From contig JACPQN010000015.1 in the NCBI GenBank assembly GCA_016190485.1, positions 1 to 59,277 of the forward strand: a stretch of 59,277 nt of DNA, in the 5' to 3' direction. Of the stretch, positions 2,751-24,509 are shown piece by piece. The number at the start of each line of letters is the position of its first letter. Position 1 is the first letter of the stretch. Under the pieces are notes generated by a model, which did no database searches, was not told where the DNA came from, and saw only the letters and a list, made by a program, of their open reading frames with translations. A program made the translations under genes and the position numbers. Source of the stretch: Chloroflexota bacterium. GTDB lineage: Bacteria > Chloroflexota > Dehalococcoidia > SHYD01.

Positions 2751-3746
2751 ATGGCGCACTACAGCAAGGGTGAGGCCAAGGAGTGGGCGCGGGAGCACCT
2801 CCGGGGCCAATGGACCACCCTGGTGACTCCATTCACCCCCGACGACGAAGTTGACGAAGCCGGCCTGAGAAACAACATCCGGCACATCCGCTCCCTGGGC
2901 ACGCGCGGCGCAGGGTGCTCCTGGAACATGGGCGAGTTCTGGAGCCTGACCCGGGAAGAGCGGCGACGGGTCATGGAGGTCCTCGCCGACGAGGCGGGCG
3001 GCCAGTGGCCCATTGCGGCCCAGGTGACCCACACCTCCTACAAAGAGGCCATCGCCCTGGCCAAGCACGTGGAGGCCCTGGGCTACGACCTGCTGATCCT
3101 GGGACCACCCTACATCGTCACCAAGACGGAGCAGCAGGTCATCGCCTTCACCCGGGCGGTGGCGGAGCAGGCCTCCCTGGGCATCATGTTCTACAACTCG
3201 CCCCAGTTCGGCATCGTCATGAGCGCCCAGGGGCTGCAGGAGCTGTGTCGCATCCCCAACGTGGTAGGGGTTAAAGAGGCCAGCTTTAACCAGCAGATCT
3301 CCATCGACACTCACCTGTTGGTGGGCAAAGAGGCAGTCATCAGCACGCCCGACGAGTGGATCTTCGCCAAAGGCAAGGAGCTGGGATTCCACCAGCAGGT
3401 CATGTTCGCCAACACCTCCGACTGGCGCTTCGACGTGCCAGGCCGCACCCACTACGTGGACTTTGTGAACCGGGCCTGTGCTGGCGCCCTGGACCCGGAC
3501 TTCTATGCCAAGCACCTGCGCCCCGTGAAGGAGCTCTCGGACCAGTGGTGGCGCGCCACCGTCCAGAAGTTCAGCGGCGTGCTGCCGGTGTCCCTCTGCA
3601 AGTACTGGGGCCAGCTCCAGGGCATGGCGGGAGGCCACGTGCGTCTGCCCCTGATGGATCTCACGCCGGAGGAGAAGGCCCAGCTCAAGCAGGAGTTGGA
3701 CGCGGCGCAGGCGCCCATGCTGGTGGCCGGGGGTGAACGCCGATGA
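2751..3746 (+). CDS. DapA/N-acetylneuraminate-lyase family class I aldolase (not canonical DapA)
   Basis: LVTPF..D.EVD, FYNSP and Schiff-base GVKEAS motifs; WNMGE replaces GTTGE; GAGGAG RBS. Confidence 0.85.
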   Translation: MAHYSKGEAKEWAREHLRGQWTTLVTPFTPDDEVDEAGLRNNIRHIRSLGTRGAGCSWNMGEFWSLTREERRRVMEVLADEAGGQWPIAAQVTHTSYKEAIALAKHVEALGYDLLILGPPYIVTKTEQQVIAFTRAVAEQASLGIMFYNSPQFGIVMSAQGLQELCRIPNVVGVKEASFNQQISIDTHLLVGKEAVISTPDEWIFAKGKELGFHQQVMFANTSDWRFDVPGRTHYVDFVNRACAGALDPDFYAKHLRPVKELSDQWWRATVQKFSGVLPVSLCKYWGQLQGMAGGHVRLPLMDLTPEEKAQLKQELDAAQAPMLVAGGERR

Positions 3747-4723
3747 TCCTCATGGTGAGCGTCCAGAACCTGCCCGAGGCCCTGGAGGCCGCCAGGGGCG
3801 GCGCAGACATCGTGGACGTCAAGAACCTCCAGGAGGCCCTGGTGGGCTCTGCCCACCCCCTGGTGGCCAGAGAGGTGCGGGCCGCCATAGACCCGGACAA
3901 GCATGTGAGCATTACCCTGGGCGTGGTGCCCAACCAGGACGGCACCGTGGCCATGGCGGTCTACGCGGCGGGGCAGCTCCACGCCACCTCGGTGAAGGTG
4001 GGCTTCATGAACACGGACTACCAGCAGGCCGCGGCCACCCTGCGGGCCTCCCGCCGCGCGCTGGAAGGCACCGAGACCAAGCTCATCGGCTCCCTCTTTG
4101 CCGACAACCCCCTGTACGACGGGCTGGACCCCCGCCTCATGGTGAAGCTGGCCAAAGAGGGGGAGTGCGACGGCTTTCTCATCGACACCCTGACCAAGGA
4201 CGGGCGCAACCTCTTCGACTTCATGCCCGAAGACCTGCTACGGGACATGGTCTTTGAGGGCAAAGAGGCGGGCAGGAGCACGGCCCTCTCCGGCCATCTC
4301 CGCATCGAGGACCTGGACGAGCTGGCCCGCATCAACCCGGACATCGTAGGCGTGCGGGGCGCCGTGTGCCAGAAGGGCGACCGCGCCACCGCAGTGGCCT
4401 GGGAGGCCGTGGCCGAGTTCAAGCGCCAGGTGGAGCTGCGCAAGAGCGGCGAGATCAACGTCTTCGGCAGCGCCCGGGTGGGCGTCAACGGCCACAGCAA
4501 CGGCTGGGTGGTCATCGACGGGCGGGGCAAGAGCTGCGCCGGCATCATCGCCGCCCTCACCGCGCAGGTGGAGAAGGACCGCAGCGCCCTCATCGAGGTA
4601 CTCATCCCCGACGTGCTGAACATCTACGACCTCATCGTCTGGTCGCAGAAGCGGGGCCACCGGCTCCTGAGCCAGCGCAAAGAGACGGATAGCAGCACGG
4701 TGCGGGTGCTGGTGCAGCCGTAA
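3743..4723 (+). CDS. mfnB: (5-formylfuran-3-yl)methyl phosphate synthase-like protein (DUF556) fused to a C-terminal TusA/SirA-like domain
   Basis: LMVSV...EA..A..GGADIVDVKN, IDTLTKDG and PDIVGVRGAVC motifs; C-terminal ~70 aa IDGRGKSC...IEVL...W..RGH resembles TusA; ATGA overlap with the upstream gene. Confidence 0.8.
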   Translation: MILMVSVQNLPEALEAARGGADIVDVKNLQEALVGSAHPLVAREVRAAIDPDKHVSITLGVVPNQDGTVAMAVYAAGQLHATSVKVGFMNTDYQQAAATLRASRRALEGTETKLIGSLFADNPLYDGLDPRLMVKLAKEGECDGFLIDTLTKDGRNLFDFMPEDLLRDMVFEGKEAGRSTALSGHLRIEDLDELARINPDIVGVRGAVCQKGDRATAVAWEAVAEFKRQVELRKSGEINVFGSARVGVNGHSNGWVVIDGRGKSCAGIIAALTAQVEKDRSALIEVLIPDVLNIYDLIVWSQKRGHRLLSQRKETDSSTVRVLVQP

Positions 4724-22402: not shown

Positions 22403-22966
22403 ATGATGGAGCAAGCCCTGGAAAGAAAAGCAGCCAGGTTGTGGCTGCTGGGGACCATCGTAGCGGCGCTGTTGGTCTCAGCGTGCGCCCAGAGCGCGGG
22501 CGCACAGCAGGCGGGCGGCGACAAGGACAGGGAGATCGCTGCCCTGCGAGACCAGGTGGCCGGGCTTCAGCAAGATAGCCGATTCTGGAGCCAGCTCGCT
22601 GGCGCGCTCAAGCCAGTGGAGATGGCGAGCATGACTGACCACCGGGCCTACATGTTGCCCAGCGGCGCTGTCATCGCCCTCCATTTCGATAATCTGAAGC
22701 TGGACCAGGCCAAGAACCTCAACTGGGTCGCCCTGGGGATTCCCGGCGCCTTCACCAAGGCGGACCAGGAGCGGGTGGAGGGCCAGTTCGGCAAGGGCTT
22801 CACCCACTTCCACGATATGAAGAACGACACCCATGGCGGAAAGCCCGGCGCCGAAGGGGTCTGGTTCGTCCACATGGCCGTTCGAGACTTCGACTCTCCC
22901 ATGTCCGGCGGTGGCGTGAAAGCAGGGGTTGATGGTAAGTTCATGCCGACGCCTCCGTCTCAATAG
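22403..22966 (+). CDS. His/Met-rich lipoprotein of unknown function
   Basis: AAGGAGG RBS; lipobox LVSA-C; coiled coil; MTDH, LHFD, FTHFHD, THGG and WFVHM motifs. Confidence 0.8.
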   Translation: MMEQALERKAARLWLLGTIVAALLVSACAQSAGAQQAGGDKDREIAALRDQVAGLQQDSRFWSQLAGALKPVEMASMTDHRAYMLPSGAVIALHFDNLKLDQAKNLNWVALGIPGAFTKADQERVEGQFGKGFTHFHDMKNDTHGGKPGAEGVWFVHMAVRDFDSPMSGGGVKAGVDGKFMPTPPSQ

Positions 22967-22976
22967 CGGAGCACCG

Positions 22977-23012
22977 CTCACCCTCTCCCTTCTTTCCGGG
23001 GGAGAGGGTGAG
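22977..23012. repeat. CCCTCTCCC...GGGAGAGGG hairpin repeat
   Basis: CTCACCCTCTCCC...GGGAGAGGGTGAG; related sequence at ~41230-41300. Confidence 0.6.
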
Positions 23013-23067
23013 CGAATCTCAGGGACTGAAGGTCGCTGATGGTAGGGAGCATCGAGAAGTGAGAGCC

Positions 23068-23220
23068 ATGTGGGGGATCAAGGACGTTCAGAAGGCGGGT
23101 CTCTGCCGCTACTGACCATCAAGCTGGCTGCTGGGGCTAGCAGTCTTGCTGGTCTACGACAGTCTGTTCCTGGCGCGACAGGCGATTCGAAAGGTGACGG
23201 CCCTGCTTGTACCGCGATAG
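23068..23220 (+). CDS. candidate small membrane selenoprotein (CxxU)
   Basis: MWGIKDVQKAGLCRY-U(TGA 23113-23115)-PSSWLLGLAVLLVYDSLFLARQAIRKVTALLVPR*; SECIS-like hairpin directly 3' of the UGA; alternative GTG starts at 23059 and 23008. Confidence 0.55.
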
Positions 23221-23253
23221 TCGGCGGCGAGGCGGCGGGACAACCCCCGCACG

Positions 23254-23487
23254 TTAGAGGCCCAGAAGCTCACTCAGGCGTGCTCGGTCGAAGCCGATGA
23301 TCACCTCGCCGTCGATGACGGTGGTGGGAGTGGCGCGTGACCGCAGCGCAATGAGCTCCCGCAGCAGCGCTCGGTCCTTGCCGATGTCCTTCTCTACAAA
23401 GGGGACCCGGTGTTGAGAGAGAAACTCTTTCTCAGCATGGCAGGACGCTCAGCCCGGCTGGGTGTAGATCGCGACTTCCTGAGCCAA
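23254..23487 (-). CDS. glutaredoxin/NrdH-like selenoprotein (UxxC)
   Basis: MAQEVAIYTQPG-U-ASCHAEKEFLSQHRVPFVEKDI...ATPTTVIDGEVIIGFD (77 aa); TGA at 23451-23449 occupies the first Cys position of CxxC; missed by the ORF track. Confidence 0.9.
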
Positions 23488-23512
23488 TCTGCTCACTTCC
23501 TTACTCGCAGTG

Positions 23513-24205
23513 TTAACCTTGCGCCACGGCCGCCAGACGGCCCGAGTCCAGGATGTCGATGCGAGTACGGCCCAAGCCGATAAGCCCCTGGGCTTTCAGC
23601 TCGTTCAGGGCCAGGGTCGCCGTCTCACGAAAGGTGCCCGCCATCTCGGCCAGGTCCTGATGGGTGAGACCGGTGATAGTGCTACTCTGCTGCTCCTCGG
23701 CCAGCCGCAGCAGGAGCGCCGCCAGGCGGGCCCCCACGCTCTTAAAGGCCAGGTCTTCCAGGACAGCCTGGGCATTGAGCAGCCGCCTCCCCACGACCTG
23801 GAGCACCCGCAGCGCCACAATGGGCTTGGTAAGAAGCAGGCGCTCCACGTCCGCCCGGCTCATGGCGCAGAGGACACTGGGCTCCGCGGCTTCGGCGAAG
23901 CTATCGTACATGCCCTGGCCCAGCAGCGACATCTCTCCGAAGAAGGTACCGGCGGGTAGATGGGCAATGATGAGCTTCTTGCCTTCGGGAGAGAGGCGAT
24001 AGAGGTTGACTACCCCCTTCTTGAGCAGATAGAGCACCTCGCGCGACTCGCCGGGAATGTAGATAATCCTGCCCCGCTCGCAGGTCATCTCCGTGGTCAC
24101 CCGGTCGAGCCACTCCATCTCCTCCTTGGTGAGGTCTTTGAAGACCTCCTGGCCGGAGAGGTAGCCCACCTTGCTGGCCAACGAGGCGGGTTCGAATGCC
24201 TCCAT
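23513..24205 (-). CDS. Crp/Fnr-family transcriptional regulator
   Basis: cNMP-fold G.FFGE motif; HTH LTHQDLAEMAGTFRETAT. Confidence 0.93.
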   Translation of the reverse strand: MEAFEPASLASKVGYLSGQEVFKDLTKEEMEWLDRVTTEMTCERGRIIYIPGESREVLYLLKKGVVNLYRLSPEGKKLIIAHLPAGTFFGEMSLLGQGMYDSFAEAAEPSVLCAMSRADVERLLLTKPIVALRVLQVVGRRLLNAQAVLEDLAFKSVGARLAALLLRLAEEQQSSTITGLTHQDLAEMAGTFRETATLALNELKAQGLIGLGRTRIDILDSGRLAAVAQG

Positions 24206-24221: not shown

Positions 24222-24476
24222 TTACTGTGGCCTGTAAAGTTGCGCCAGCCTGGCGTTCAGCTCCTCCGGGAAAGGGTTCCCTACGAAGAGGACGTTCTCG
24301 TCCAGGAGGAAGGTGGGCACGGCGACGACGGCGTCGGGCTTTTGCACCATCTCCCCCTCCAGATCAACGAGCTCCACAGGCAGGTCGGGGAAGCGCCGCC
24401 CCACTTCCTCGTAGAGGCGGCGCGCCTCCTCACAACCCGGGCACTGTCCTGCGACGACAATCCGAAGGAGGGGCAT
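24222..24476 (-). CDS. small thioredoxin-fold protein (CPGC)
   Basis: CPGC, AVPTF cis-Pro and GNP motifs; ATG at 24476 after AAGGA. Confidence 0.85.
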   Translation of the reverse strand: MPLLRIVVAGQCPGCEEARRLYEEVGRRFPDLPVELVDLEGEMVQKPDAVVAVPTFLLDENVLFVGNPFPEELNARLAQLYRPQ

Positions 24477-24509
24477 TGGTGTGTCCTTGTGCCAGACTGG
24501 CATACAACA

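What the first reader, a model, noticed from the sequence alone, without database searches (positions are those of the whole stretch)
23068..23220. Hidden ~50-aa membrane selenoprotein with a CxxU motif
Seen: in an apparently empty gap the frame reads ...AGL-C-R-Y-UGA-PSSWLLGLAVLLVYDSLFLARQAIRK..., a CxxU motif followed by a hydrophobic helix and basic tail. Directly after the UGA is a long hairpin (CCA/UGG, CAAG/CUUG, GCUGCUG-GGGC-UAGCAGU) whose G-initiated loop starts 18 nt past the UGA, the same spacing as in the GrdB-like gene. selB is in the window and another selenoprotein gene converges 33 nt away. I recognise no family, so this is a candidate new selenoprotein.
Basis: partly seen in the sequence, partly recalled or inferred. 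Interest (0 to 1): 0.9.

Follow-up and report, generated by a model that had tools for sequence, protein, structure and literature searches.

The report
New tiny membrane selenoprotein family
The "empty" gap holds a real gene for a roughly 50-residue membrane protein that carries selenocysteine beside a cysteine, from a small family that no database has filed and whose neighbours are thiol-redox and mercury-resistance genes.

Summary
Window 23068-23220 (+) reads M-W-G-I-K-D-V-Q-K-A-G-L-C-R-Y-U, then a hydrophobic helix and a basic tail, with a hairpin after the UGA.

Taken alone this is not above chance. The genome holds 312 comparable CxxTGA read-through frames, 11 of them with a hairpin. Comparison settles it:
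- Five Bacillota genomes carry a collinear gene with TGA in the same column.
- Two database proteins carry Cys there (P0007, P0016).
- dN/dS after the TGA is below 1 in all 21 pairs.
- Conservation begins and ends with the ORF.
- A 7-bp hairpin with an invariant GG loop follows the UGA in 6 of 6 Sec genes and is lost in the one Cys gene whose DNA I held.
- SelB and tRNA-Sec are present in all six genomes.

None of the 8 members hits any Pfam or NCBIfam model. None of the 119 families in a 2026 inventory fits.

Function is inferred, not shown. The Cys/Sec pair sits at the start of the membrane helix. Neighbours are Grx-like selenoproteins, ResA-like reductases with CcdA, and MerA. My best guess is a thiol/selenol exchange site serving Trx-fold partners. 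Direct binding of Hg or another soft metal is the main rival.

The parts
23068..23220 (+). Gene for a 50-residue single-helix membrane selenoprotein (ATG to TAG, stop included)
   Evidence: Translation. Collinear homologues with TGA or Cys in the same column. dN/dS below 1.
23104..23106 (+). Codon of the invariant Cys (C13 of the G-L-C motif)
   Evidence: Invariant in 8 of 8 sequences of alignment A5.
23113..23115 (+). In-frame UGA read as selenocysteine (U16)
   Evidence: TGA in the same column in 6 of 6 Sec genes; TGC in the one Cys-form gene whose DNA was held (L037); Cys in protein P0016.
23126..23145 (+). Conserved SECIS-like upper hairpin: 7-bp stem GGCUGCU/(A/G)GCAG(U/C)C around a loop with an invariant GG
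   Evidence: RNAalifold columns 14-33, all 7 pairs kept in 6 of 6 sequences. Third-codon positions are invariant at 4 of 5 stem sites against 1 of 10 outside. The stem is lost in the Cys-form gene L037.
23114..23154 (+). Window-specific extended hairpin (lower pairs GACCA/UGGUC and CAAG/CUUG below the conserved stem)
   Evidence: Fold. The lower pairs are not conserved in the other five genes.
23119..23175 (+). Hydrophobic membrane helix (residues 18-36)
   Evidence: Best 19-residue Kyte-Doolittle window has mean 1.73; the 8 family members range 1.52-2.11.
23254..23496 (-). Convergent glutaredoxin-like selenoprotein gene (U16, PGUASCH), a candidate partner
   Evidence: A 42%-identical gene with the same active site stands beside the small gene in G499.
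23513..24205 (-). Crp/Fnr-type regulator, directly upstream of the grx gene on the same strand (context)
   Evidence: Pfam cNMP_binding 5.8e-18 and HTH_Crp_2 3.4e-16.
24222..24503 (-). Small thioredoxin-like gene (weak Thioredoxin_3 match, below the cut-off), context
   Evidence: 20.1 bits against a cut-off of 24.8.
22980..23009 (+). Inverted repeat after the upstream 203-residue gene, 58 nt before the small gene's ATG
   Evidence: Read. No T run; the terminator scan found nothing.
48497..50350 (+). selB, the Sec-specific elongation factor
   Evidence: TIGR00475, 364.9 bits, over the cut-off.

Best explanation
Window 23068-23220 is a genuine translated gene for a roughly 50-residue bitopic membrane selenoprotein. 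It belongs to a small family that is not filed in any library I could search.

How the gene is read: the UGA at 23113 is recoded to selenocysteine by SelB and tRNA-Sec, guided by the hairpin that starts 10 nt after the UGA.

What the protein looks like: a short basic N-terminal arm, an invariant G-L-C, then Sec one or two residues later, then Pro and a single hydrophobic helix (W-L-L-G-L-A-A...Y-N), then a basic tail. The Cys/Sec pair therefore sits at the N-terminal end of the membrane helix, at the membrane surface.

Inferred, not shown: this pair is the working site. I put about 45% on it exchanging a selenenylsulfide/selenol-thiol with thioredoxin-fold proteins encoded beside it. Those are a Grx-like selenoprotein here and in G499, and ResA-like reductases fed by CcdA in G502 and G505. 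The whole would form part of a response to thiophilic stress, since in G503 and G502 the gene lies beside or near merA.

The redox-relay role is much less certain.
For: 1. Homologues across the UGA. Five genomes of one Bacillota class (5 of 210 searched) carry a collinear gene with a single TGA in the same column. In the three genes of the window's subfamily, 15 residues precede U.

2. Cys forms. P0007 (71 aa, GLCGYC; E 8e-5 alone, 5.1e-23 against profile A1) and P0016 (63 aa, GLCCC; 1.1e-21).

3. Protein-level selection after the UGA. Nei-Gojobori dN/dS over 19 codons is 0.04-0.77 in 21 of 21 pairs. G401 against G499 shows 10 synonymous and 2 non-synonymous differences. Ser is coded by both AGC and TCC.

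4. The conserved block equals the ORF:
- G401/G499 identity: 0.48 upstream, 0.87 start to TGA, 0.71 TGA to stop, 0.40 downstream.
- G503/G505/G502 identity: 0.18, 0.71, 0.69, 0.29.

5. Hairpin. Seven pairs are kept in 6 of 6 genes, with an invariant GG in the loop. Third-codon positions are invariant at 4 of 5 stem sites against 1 of 10 outside; the one stem site that varies switches A and G opposite U (Fisher one-sided p = 0.017, overstated because the sequences are related). The Cys-form gene L037 does not form the stem.

6. Sec machinery. SelB over the cut-off and tRNA-Sec at 72-77 bits in 6 of 6 genomes. SelA and SelD are present in G000.

7. Hydrophobic helix in 8 of 8 members.

8. Context.
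- Grx(Sec) is adjacent in the window and on both sides in G499.
- A ResA-like gene lies directly upstream in G502 and G505, and CcdA (DsbD_TM, 30.3 bits) lies in G502.
- MerA at 601.7 bits lies in the same cluster in G503. A MerA fragment lies 4.8 kb upstream in G502.

9. No Pfam or NCBIfam match for any of the 8 members.
Against: - No expression or selenium-incorporation data exist. No RNA run holds the stretch.
- The family is tiny: 6 Sec and 2 Cys sequences, all from metagenome-derived records.
- The hairpin shows no compensatory double changes (0 of 7 pairs). Five of the six per-sequence fold z-scores are unremarkable (-0.35 to -1.13 and +0.05).
- No relative was found in 400 other genomes of G000's class (single-protein query), in 400 of its phylum or in 400 of the Bacillota sample. 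The window's copy therefore stands alone among its kin.
- The start codon in G505 is unclear; there is no ATG, GTG or TTG near the aligned start.
- Against the redox-relay reading in particular:
  - Cys-Sec spacing varies (CxxU against CxU/CCU), which is unusual for a strict redox motif.
  - Partners differ in compartment: cytoplasmic Grx against extracytoplasmic ResA-like.
  - Charge bias does not fix the topology (C-flank net charge is more positive in 6 of 8).
  - G401 and the AMFO01 locus have no thiol-redox neighbour.
  - G503 has lost the ResA-like gene but kept the small gene.
Confidence: 0.82

Rival explanations
1. Same gene and same selenoprotein, but the Cys/Sec site is a soft-metal ligand rather than a redox relay. 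It would bind Hg(II), or Cu(I), at the membrane surface and hand it on, as the cysteine pairs in the first helix of MerT, MerF and MerE do. The Trx-fold neighbours would only keep the site reduced.
For: - In G503 the gene closes a cluster made of an ArsR-type regulator, a 116-residue membrane protein with a vicinal CC in a helix, MerA (TIGR02053, 601.7 bits against a cut-off of 454.45) and a membrane protein.
- In G502 a MerA fragment (295.5 bits) and the same membrane protein lie 4-5 kb upstream on the same strand.
- Subfamily 2 has C-C-U or C-x-U, and its Cys form has C-C-C. This loose, vicinal spacing suits metal chelation better than a strained disulfide.
- Passages of bioRxiv 10.1101/2022.07.06.499078 state that CU motifs are rare and occur in mercury-related selenoproteins, including a small set of MerT-family proteins. 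[quoted passage not shown]
- A CsoR/RicR-like repressor and a Met-rich protein lie near the Cys-form gene.
Against: - No MerT, MerF, MerE or MerC model matches at E up to 10.
- There is one helix only.
- mer genes lie near 2 of 7 loci, and those two species are related.
- The window, G499 and G401 have no mer or copper genes within the DNA I read.
- The CopY assignment of the BlaI-like repressors is weak (24.7-27.9 bits against a cut-off of 121.95). In G505 that repressor sits beside a BlaR1-like peptidase.
Confidence: 0.3
2. The UGA is a true stop. The locus would encode only a 15-residue leader peptide followed by a conserved regulatory RNA hairpin, and the sequence after the UGA would be conserved as RNA, not as protein.
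For: The hairpin is conserved at the nucleotide level with no compensatory changes. There is no expression evidence.
Against: - Two homologues have Cys at that column and read straight through as single proteins.
- After the UGA, synonymous changes dominate and dN/dS is below 1 in 21 of 21 pairs.
- Conservation extends about 35 codons beyond the 20-nt hairpin and stops at the stop codon.
- Wobble sites vary freely outside the stem.
Confidence: 0.05
3. A chance open frame in GC-rich spacer DNA. The hairpin would be the terminator of the convergent grx gene.
For: - G000 has 312 comparable CxxTGA frames, 11 with a hairpin.
- The window is 57-72% G+C, so long open frames are common.
- The hairpin lies about 100 nt past the grx stop on the other strand.
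Against: - The same frame, the same UGA column and the same upper stem recur in five genomes of another class. Four of those have no convergent grx gene.
- The hairpin has no T run on either strand.
Confidence: 0.03

Closest known systems
MerT-family selenoproteins ('Putative mercuric transport protein', PF02411, motif C/SxxU; Table 1 of PMC13188914)
   Same: A membrane protein with a Cys/Sec site in or at a transmembrane helix. One family member (G503) lies in a mer cluster.
   Different: By recall, MerT is about 116 residues with three helices. No PF02411 match for any of the 8 members at E up to 10. This family has a single helix and 48-63 residues (71 in P0007).
MerE and MerF small mercury transporters (recalled, not fetched)
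   Same: Small membrane proteins of mer operons whose cysteine pair in a helix carries Hg(II). MerE stands after merA, as this gene does in G503.
   Different: By recall they have two helices and about 80 residues, with no Sec forms known to me. No sequence similarity was detected.
DsbB and VKOR (recalled)
   Same: A CxxC pair at the end of a transmembrane helix that exchanges disulfides with a thioredoxin-fold partner, which is often encoded next to it or fused to it.
   Different: They have four or five helices and a bound quinone. There is no homology, and a single helix cannot form such a pocket on its own.
Eukaryotic selenoproteins K and S (recalled)
   Same: Small single-pass membrane selenoproteins.
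   Different: Their Sec lies near the C-terminus in a cytosolic tail and their SECIS lies in the 3' UTR. There is no homology. Here Sec precedes the helix and the SECIS-like hairpin lies inside the coding region, as in bacteria.
SelW-like / Rdx proteins and other CxxU thioredoxin-fold selenoproteins
   Same: A CxxU motif with Cys-form homologues.
   Different: Those are soluble thioredoxin-like folds of 80 residues or more. This protein is too short for that fold and matches no such model.
NF041239 'CC/Se motif family selenoprotein' (named in PMC13188914 Table 1)
   Same: The name and the CxxU motif suggest a CC/C-Sec site.
   Different: None of the 8 members matches NF041239 at E up to 10.

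Membership tests
Bacterial selenoprotein gene (computational criteria used in the field) | In-frame UGA conserved at one alignment column among homologues | tested here: met
   TGA in the same column in 6 of 6 Sec genes from six species genomes.
Bacterial selenoprotein gene (computational criteria used in the field) | Homologues with Cys aligned to the UGA | tested here: met
   P0007 (TGC in L037) and P0016.
Bacterial selenoprotein gene (computational criteria used in the field) | Coding conservation on both sides of the UGA | tested here: met
   dN/dS 0.04-0.77 after the UGA in 21 of 21 pairs. Identity is 0.69-0.87 inside the ORF on both sides of the UGA and 0.18-0.48 in the flanks.
Bacterial selenoprotein gene (computational criteria used in the field) | Bacterial SECIS: a stem-loop just downstream of the UGA with G in the apical loop (the 16-37 nt rule is recalled from bSECISearch) | tested here: met
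   A 7-bp stem starts 10 nt after the UGA. The loop has an invariant GG whose first G lies 18 nt after the UGA's last base, in 6 of 6 genes. There is no compensatory covariation. Synonymous sites are frozen in the stem only.
Bacterial selenoprotein gene (computational criteria used in the field) | Sec machinery in the genome | tested here: met
   SelB over the cut-off and tRNA-Sec at 72-77 bits in 6 of 6 genomes. SelA at 559.5 bits and SelD at 389.5 bits in G000. SelA and SelD were not searched in the other five.
Bacterial selenoprotein gene (computational criteria used in the field) | Selenium shown in the protein | not testable with these tools
   Needs 75Se labelling or mass spectrometry.
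MerT family (PF02411) selenoproteins | Match to the MerT model and a three-helix architecture | tested here: not met
   No PF02411 hit at E up to 10 for P0004 or P0007. No NCBIfam hit for any of the 8 members. One hydrophobic segment only.
Thioredoxin-fold CxxU selenoproteins (SelW-like, Grx, Trx, AhpD-like) | Match to a thioredoxin-fold or AhpD-type domain model | tested here: not met
   No such Pfam or NCBIfam hit. The soluble parts are under 30 residues.
NF041239 CC/Se motif family | Score against NF041239 | tested here: not met
   Not among the hits at E up to 10 for any of the 8 members.
Any of the 119 families of PMC13188914 Table 1 | Carries the family's InterPro-based model | tested here: not met
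   I read the table. All PF, NF and TIGR models are covered, with no hit. Entries that have only cd or PTHR ids could not be scanned; by their names they are large soluble domains.

The most novel reading that the evidence does not exclude
A minimal, single-helix 'micro-selenoprotein' that carries a Cys/Sec site at the membrane surface. It would act as the membrane station of a thiol/selenol relay. One version links thioredoxin-fold proteins (ResA-like outside, Grx-like inside) to the membrane, in the manner of DsbB or VKOR but with one helix. The other version captures Hg(II) or other soft metals with a selenolate for hand-off to MerA. Either would be the first bitopic membrane selenoprotein described in prokaryotes and a new accessory component of mercury/thiol-stress islands in monoderm bacteria.
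Probability: 0.3. Interest if true: 0.8.

Novelty: new variant of a known kind. Interest (0 to 1): 0.66.

Why it matters
Bacterial selenoproteins are routinely lost in annotation because the UGA is read as a stop. A protein this small is invisible twice over. Neither half of this gene was called in any of the six Sec genomes, and only the two Cys forms are in the protein databases I searched.

The find adds a family to an inventory of about 119 families, and it adds a structural type the inventory lacks: a single-pass membrane peptide whose Sec sits at the helix start.

The gene keeps company with Grx-like selenoproteins, with CcdA/ResA-type reductases and with merA. That gives a concrete, testable lead on how selenium chemistry is used at the membrane, for redox exchange or for mercury capture.

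It also shows that reading CxxU plus a hairpin from raw sequence can work, though only when comparison follows. This genome alone has 312 look-alike frames.

Tried and rejected
Searches that found nothing or little
- Rfam at gathering score on the whole window: 0 matches. ARAGORN: 0 tRNAs in the window. Promoter and terminator scan of 22800-23700: 0 and 0.
- DNA search of 22355-23520 in 41 relatives. Only the upstream 203-residue gene and parts of grx matched; nothing matched the candidate.
- P0004 against 401 genomes of G000's class. Only G000 itself matched. The best other hit had E 0.0057 per genome, covered 26 residues and had no stop, so I judged it chance. The tally was 0 of 7 in the same family and 0 of 2 in the same order.
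- Word-index search with P0004: no candidate.
- Metagenome scan with P0004: 593 pattern matches, 0 confirmed.
- Second metagenome scan with A3. The tool's pattern required a Cys codon, so Sec genes could not be found. It gave 4 stretches and 1 confirmed, L037. This is a real gap in the survey.
- Samples of 401 genomes each from the phylum of G401 and the phylum of G000: no further member.
- Viral contigs with a degenerate DNA pattern: 0.
- Protein atlas with P0007: no usable hit.

Hits I rejected
- L028 (cyanobacterial MAG) shares PSSWLLGL and IFLARQ, but inside the N-terminal anchor of a longer frame with neither C nor U. Judged chance.
- G409, G443 and G588 (E 0.003-0.009) showed no family pattern when translated.
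- G1139 (E 5.2e-4, GICRTCP..LLGL) overlaps the 3' end of a LysM-domain gene on the other strand for 90 of its 123 nt. Judged chance.
- Of the 7 proteins, I fetched only P0007 and P0008. P0008 is a repeat protein. The other five (468-1926 residues, partial matches) I dropped without inspecting them.

Steps that gave no evidence
- Sequencing runs: no RNA holder listed.
- Contigs laid on 22800-23600. X2 and X4 are identical over the ORF. X5 has one low-depth contig (2.8) that covers 22800-23145 with its indels confined to 23009-23058; its letters were not available. X6 does not cover the ORF. I treat none of this as evidence.
I ran no structure prediction.
- The Grx-like selenoprotein occurs elsewhere in all five Bacillota genomes. 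With no background frequency this says nothing about coupling.

Ideas considered and dropped
- Lipoprotein. G-L-C is not a lipobox (by recall the residue before Cys should be G, A or S), and the hydrophobic segment follows the Cys rather than preceding it. The lspA neighbour in G401 is probably coincidence.
- TGA recoded as a sense codon throughout the genome. Three of the family's genes end in TGA, and SelB and tRNA-Sec are present.

Literature
- Three full-text searches found no description of a small single-helix bacterial selenoprotein.
- I read passages of PMC1976440, PMC2398784 and bioRxiv 10.1101/2022.07.06.499078, and parts 1-2 of section 7, including all of Table 1, of PMC13188914.
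- BSepDB (PMC13326102) and deep-Sep (PMC12013277) I saw only as search listings.
- Supplements are closed. Their gene lists could hold this family, and I could not check.
Full report
1. THE OBSERVATION

On the + strand, ATG at 23068 opens a frame that reads MWGIKDVQKAGLCRY. A TGA follows at 23113-23115, then PSSWLLGLAVLLVYDSLFLARQAIRKVTALLVPR and TAG at 23218-23220.

The 48 nt from the UGA fold into the stated hairpin at -19.5 kcal/mol, with z = -2.39 and 6 of 200 shuffles folding as well. The GGGC loop starts 18 nt after the UGA. In a 71-nt context the fold is unremarkable (z = -0.37).

The convergent gene 23496-23254 (-) is a glutaredoxin-like gene with U16 in PGUASCH (Pfam Glutaredoxin 5e-11). 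Its stop lies 33 nt from the candidate's stop. selB lies at 48497-50350.

The frame has coding-like base composition: GC by codon position is 0.63/0.43/0.73.

2. IS IT MORE THAN CHANCE?

Not from this sequence alone. The genome is 66% G+C, and open frames abound. Across all six frames of G000 I counted 66,124 TGA codons. Of these, 312 are CxxTGA with a start 5-60 codons upstream and at least 30 open codons downstream. Eleven also pass a simple hairpin rule. One of those eleven, at window 14504 (+), lies antisense inside a real ABC substrate-binding gene.

3. HOMOLOGUES

The first searches were blank.
- No DNA-level match in 41 relatives.
- Nothing convincing in 401 genomes of G000's class.
- No word-index candidate.
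- Nothing in metagenome contigs.

The scan of one genome per species then returned L027, a Bacillota MAG contig. Its frame reads MLTWRKLRAHGLCGE-TGA-PSSWLLGLAALIVYNAGYLAWAGVRWAVRARS-TAG. Fifteen residues precede the TGA, as in the window.

The exhaustive HMMER search of 1.84 billion representatives returned P0007. It is 71 residues, collinear over 3-42, and carries GLCGYC where the window has GLCRYU.

A profile of these three (A1) found four more genes among the 210 genomes of that Bacillota class (G499, G503, G505 and G502), making five with G401. Each has exactly one TGA inside the match. A profile of seven (A3) then found a second Cys form, P0016, with 63 residues and GLCCC.

The family as known here has six Sec genes and two Cys proteins (alignment A5). 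G11, L12, C13, U/C16, W20, L21, G23, L24 and R41 are invariant.

There are two subfamilies.
- The window, G401, G499 and P0007 have C-x-x-U/C.
- G503, G505, G502 and P0016 have C-x-U/C. Three of these four have Cys directly before the Sec or Cys (CCU, CCC).

4. IS THE PART AFTER THE UGA TRANSLATED?

Four lines of evidence say yes.
- Over the 19 codons after the UGA, Nei-Gojobori dN/dS is below 1 in all 21 pairs (0.04-0.77). The close pair G401/G499 differs at 10 synonymous and 2 non-synonymous sites.
- Serine is coded by AGC in some genes and TCC in others. Pro, Leu and Gly wobble positions vary freely.
- The other two frames of the same DNA keep 3 and 4 invariant residues of 18, against 7 in the proposed frame.
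- Conservation begins at the start codon and ends at the stop:

| Segment | G401 vs G499 | G503/G505/G502 |
|---|---|---|
| Upstream flank | 0.48 | 0.18 |
| Start to TGA | 0.87 | 0.71 |
| TGA to stop | 0.71 | 0.69 |
| Downstream flank | 0.40 | 0.29 |

G502 has a textbook Shine-Dalgarno sequence (AAGGAGG) six bases before its ATG.

5. THE HAIRPIN

RNAalifold on the six Sec genes gives one stem. It spans columns 14-33 counted from the U of UGA, has seven pairs kept in 6 of 6 genes, and its loop has an invariant GG. No pair changes on both sides, so there is no classical covariation.

The constraint shows instead at synonymous sites. Third-codon positions are invariant at 4 of 5 stem sites (3 of 4 without the non-degenerate TGG). 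The remaining stem site switches A and G opposite U. Outside the stem only 1 of 10 such positions is invariant (Fisher one-sided p = 0.017, overstated because the sequences are related).

The one Cys-form gene whose DNA I held (L037) does not form the stem.

6. SEC MACHINERY

SelB over the curated cut-off and tRNA-Sec at 72-77 bits are present in all six genomes. G000 also has SelA (559.5 bits) and a SelD gene that itself contains one TGA.

7. WHAT KIND OF PROTEIN IS IT?

Every member has one 19-residue window with a Kyte-Doolittle mean of 1.52-2.11, directly after the Sec-Pro. Both flanks are basic. The C-flank has the higher net charge in 6 of 8, which leans towards N-out/C-in but does not settle the topology. 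The Cys/Sec pair therefore sits at the N-terminal end of the helix, at the membrane surface.

8. NEIGHBOURS

- Window: Grx(Sec) convergent, then a Crp/Fnr regulator and a weak thioredoxin-like gene on that strand. A chromate transporter lies two genes upstream.
- G499: Grx(Sec; GUAGC, apparently frameshifted), then the small gene, then Grx(Sec; PGUASCH, 42% identical to the window's), then a zinc-ribbon protein, all on one strand.
- G502: MerA fragment, then a 186-residue membrane protein, a ResA-like gene, CcdA (DsbD_TM, 30.3 bits), a divergent BlaI-like repressor, a second ResA-like gene (WCSSC), and the small gene 46 nt later.
- G505: the same order, with a BlaR1-like peptidase. The ResA-like gene has TAG at its Trp codon, and the contig ends before any merA.
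- G503: an ArsR-type regulator, a 116-residue membrane protein with a vicinal CC, MerA (601.7 bits against 454.45), the same membrane protein, a remnant of the ResA-like gene, then the small gene.
- G401: lspA upstream and a proline racemase convergent.
- Cys-form locus L037: a CsoR/RicR-like repressor and a Met-rich protein.

Thiol-redox genes therefore stand next to the gene in 4 of 7 loci (three independent lineages). mer genes lie near it in 2 of 7 loci (one lineage).

9. MECHANISM

Shown by computation: a conserved gene, a Sec/Cys column, a hairpin and the Sec machinery.

Inferred: the Cys/Sec pair is the working site. I commit to a thiol/selenol exchange site serving the adjacent Trx-fold proteins, at about 45%. 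The main rival is a soft-metal (Hg) ligand in the manner of the MerT, MerF or MerE cysteine pairs, at about 30%. That rival is favoured by the variable CxxU/CxU/CCU spacing and by the mer context. It is weakened by the lack of any similarity to mer transporters and by the three loci without metal genes. The two readings can be combined: a selenolate that captures a thiophilic ligand and is kept reduced by its neighbours.

10. IS IT KNOWN?

No Pfam or NCBIfam (release 20.0) model matches any of the eight members, even at E up to 10. The 2026 review PMC13188914 lists 119 prokaryotic selenoprotein families, each with a model id. I read the whole table, and none is a small single-helix protein. 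The word 'membrane' occurs only twice in the paper's text; the one passage I saw concerns proline reductase. Three literature searches found no description.

Supplements, BSepDB and the deep-Sep gene lists could not be inspected. I therefore claim 'not filed in the libraries and tables I could read', not 'never seen'.

11. DISTRIBUTION

The family was found in 5 of 210 genomes of one Bacillota class. Beyond G401 and G000 themselves it was found in:
- 0 of 400 genomes sampled from that phylum;
- 0 of 400 in G000's class, with a single-protein query;
- 0 of 400 in G000's phylum, apart from one hit I judged to be chance.

G000 is not named by any tool. It lies in a different class from the Bacillota genomes. 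The window's copy is thus isolated among its kin and travels with a Grx(Sec) gene, as in G499. That fits lateral transfer, which I did not test.

12. VERDICT

This is a new, rare family of very small membrane selenoproteins, real with about 0.8 confidence. Its function is open between a redox relay and soft-metal handling.

Noticed in passing
window 23254-23496 (-): Glutaredoxin-like selenoprotein (U16, PGUASCH). It follows a Crp/Fnr regulator gene on the same strand.
   Followed up: partly
L053 (G499:C90), about 3570-3820 (-): The Grx(Sec; GUAGC) gene upstream of the small gene changes frame after ...IAFEDRD. The N- and C-terminal halves lie in different frames. This could be an assembly error, a pseudogene or a programmed shift.
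   Followed up: no
L032 1884-2300 (-) (G505): The ResA-like gene has TAG where its G502 orthologue has the Trp codon of WCSSC. It is either a broken gene or a sequencing error.
   Followed up: partly
L049 909-1256 (+) and 3356-3913 (+) (G503:C80): Two membrane proteins of a mer cluster have no Pfam or NCBIfam match. The other is a 186-residue protein (P0015), which is also conserved next to MerA in G502 and at the contig end in G505.
   Followed up: partly
window 22355-22966 (+): A 203-residue protein with an N-terminal hydrophobic segment and no family match. Homologues exist in three relatives (G009, G036, G021) without the small gene after them.
   Followed up: no
window 22980-23009: A 10-bp GC-rich inverted repeat (ACCCTCTCCC / GGGAGAGGGT) right after that gene, with no T run. 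It may be a terminator that the scan does not recognise.
   Followed up: no
window 14504 (+) and 3526 (+): Two further CxxTGA-plus-hairpin frames in the window. The one at 14504 lies antisense in the ABC substrate-binding gene 12955-14700 (-), a worked example of a chance hit. The one at 3526 was not examined.
   Followed up: partly
G000:C74:5102-6028 (+): The SelD gene of this genome contains one in-frame TGA, so SelD is itself a selenoprotein here.
   Followed up: no
L040 1468-1590 (+) (G1139): A 40-residue ORF with GICRTCP...LLGL...N resembles the family. It overlaps the 3' end of a LysM-domain gene on the other strand, so I judged it chance.
   Followed up: yes
window 23009-23058: A low-depth contig of a relative in run X5 differs from the window by many small deletions confined to this spacer, then aligns without gaps into the ORF up to 23145. 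Its letters were not available.
   Followed up: no
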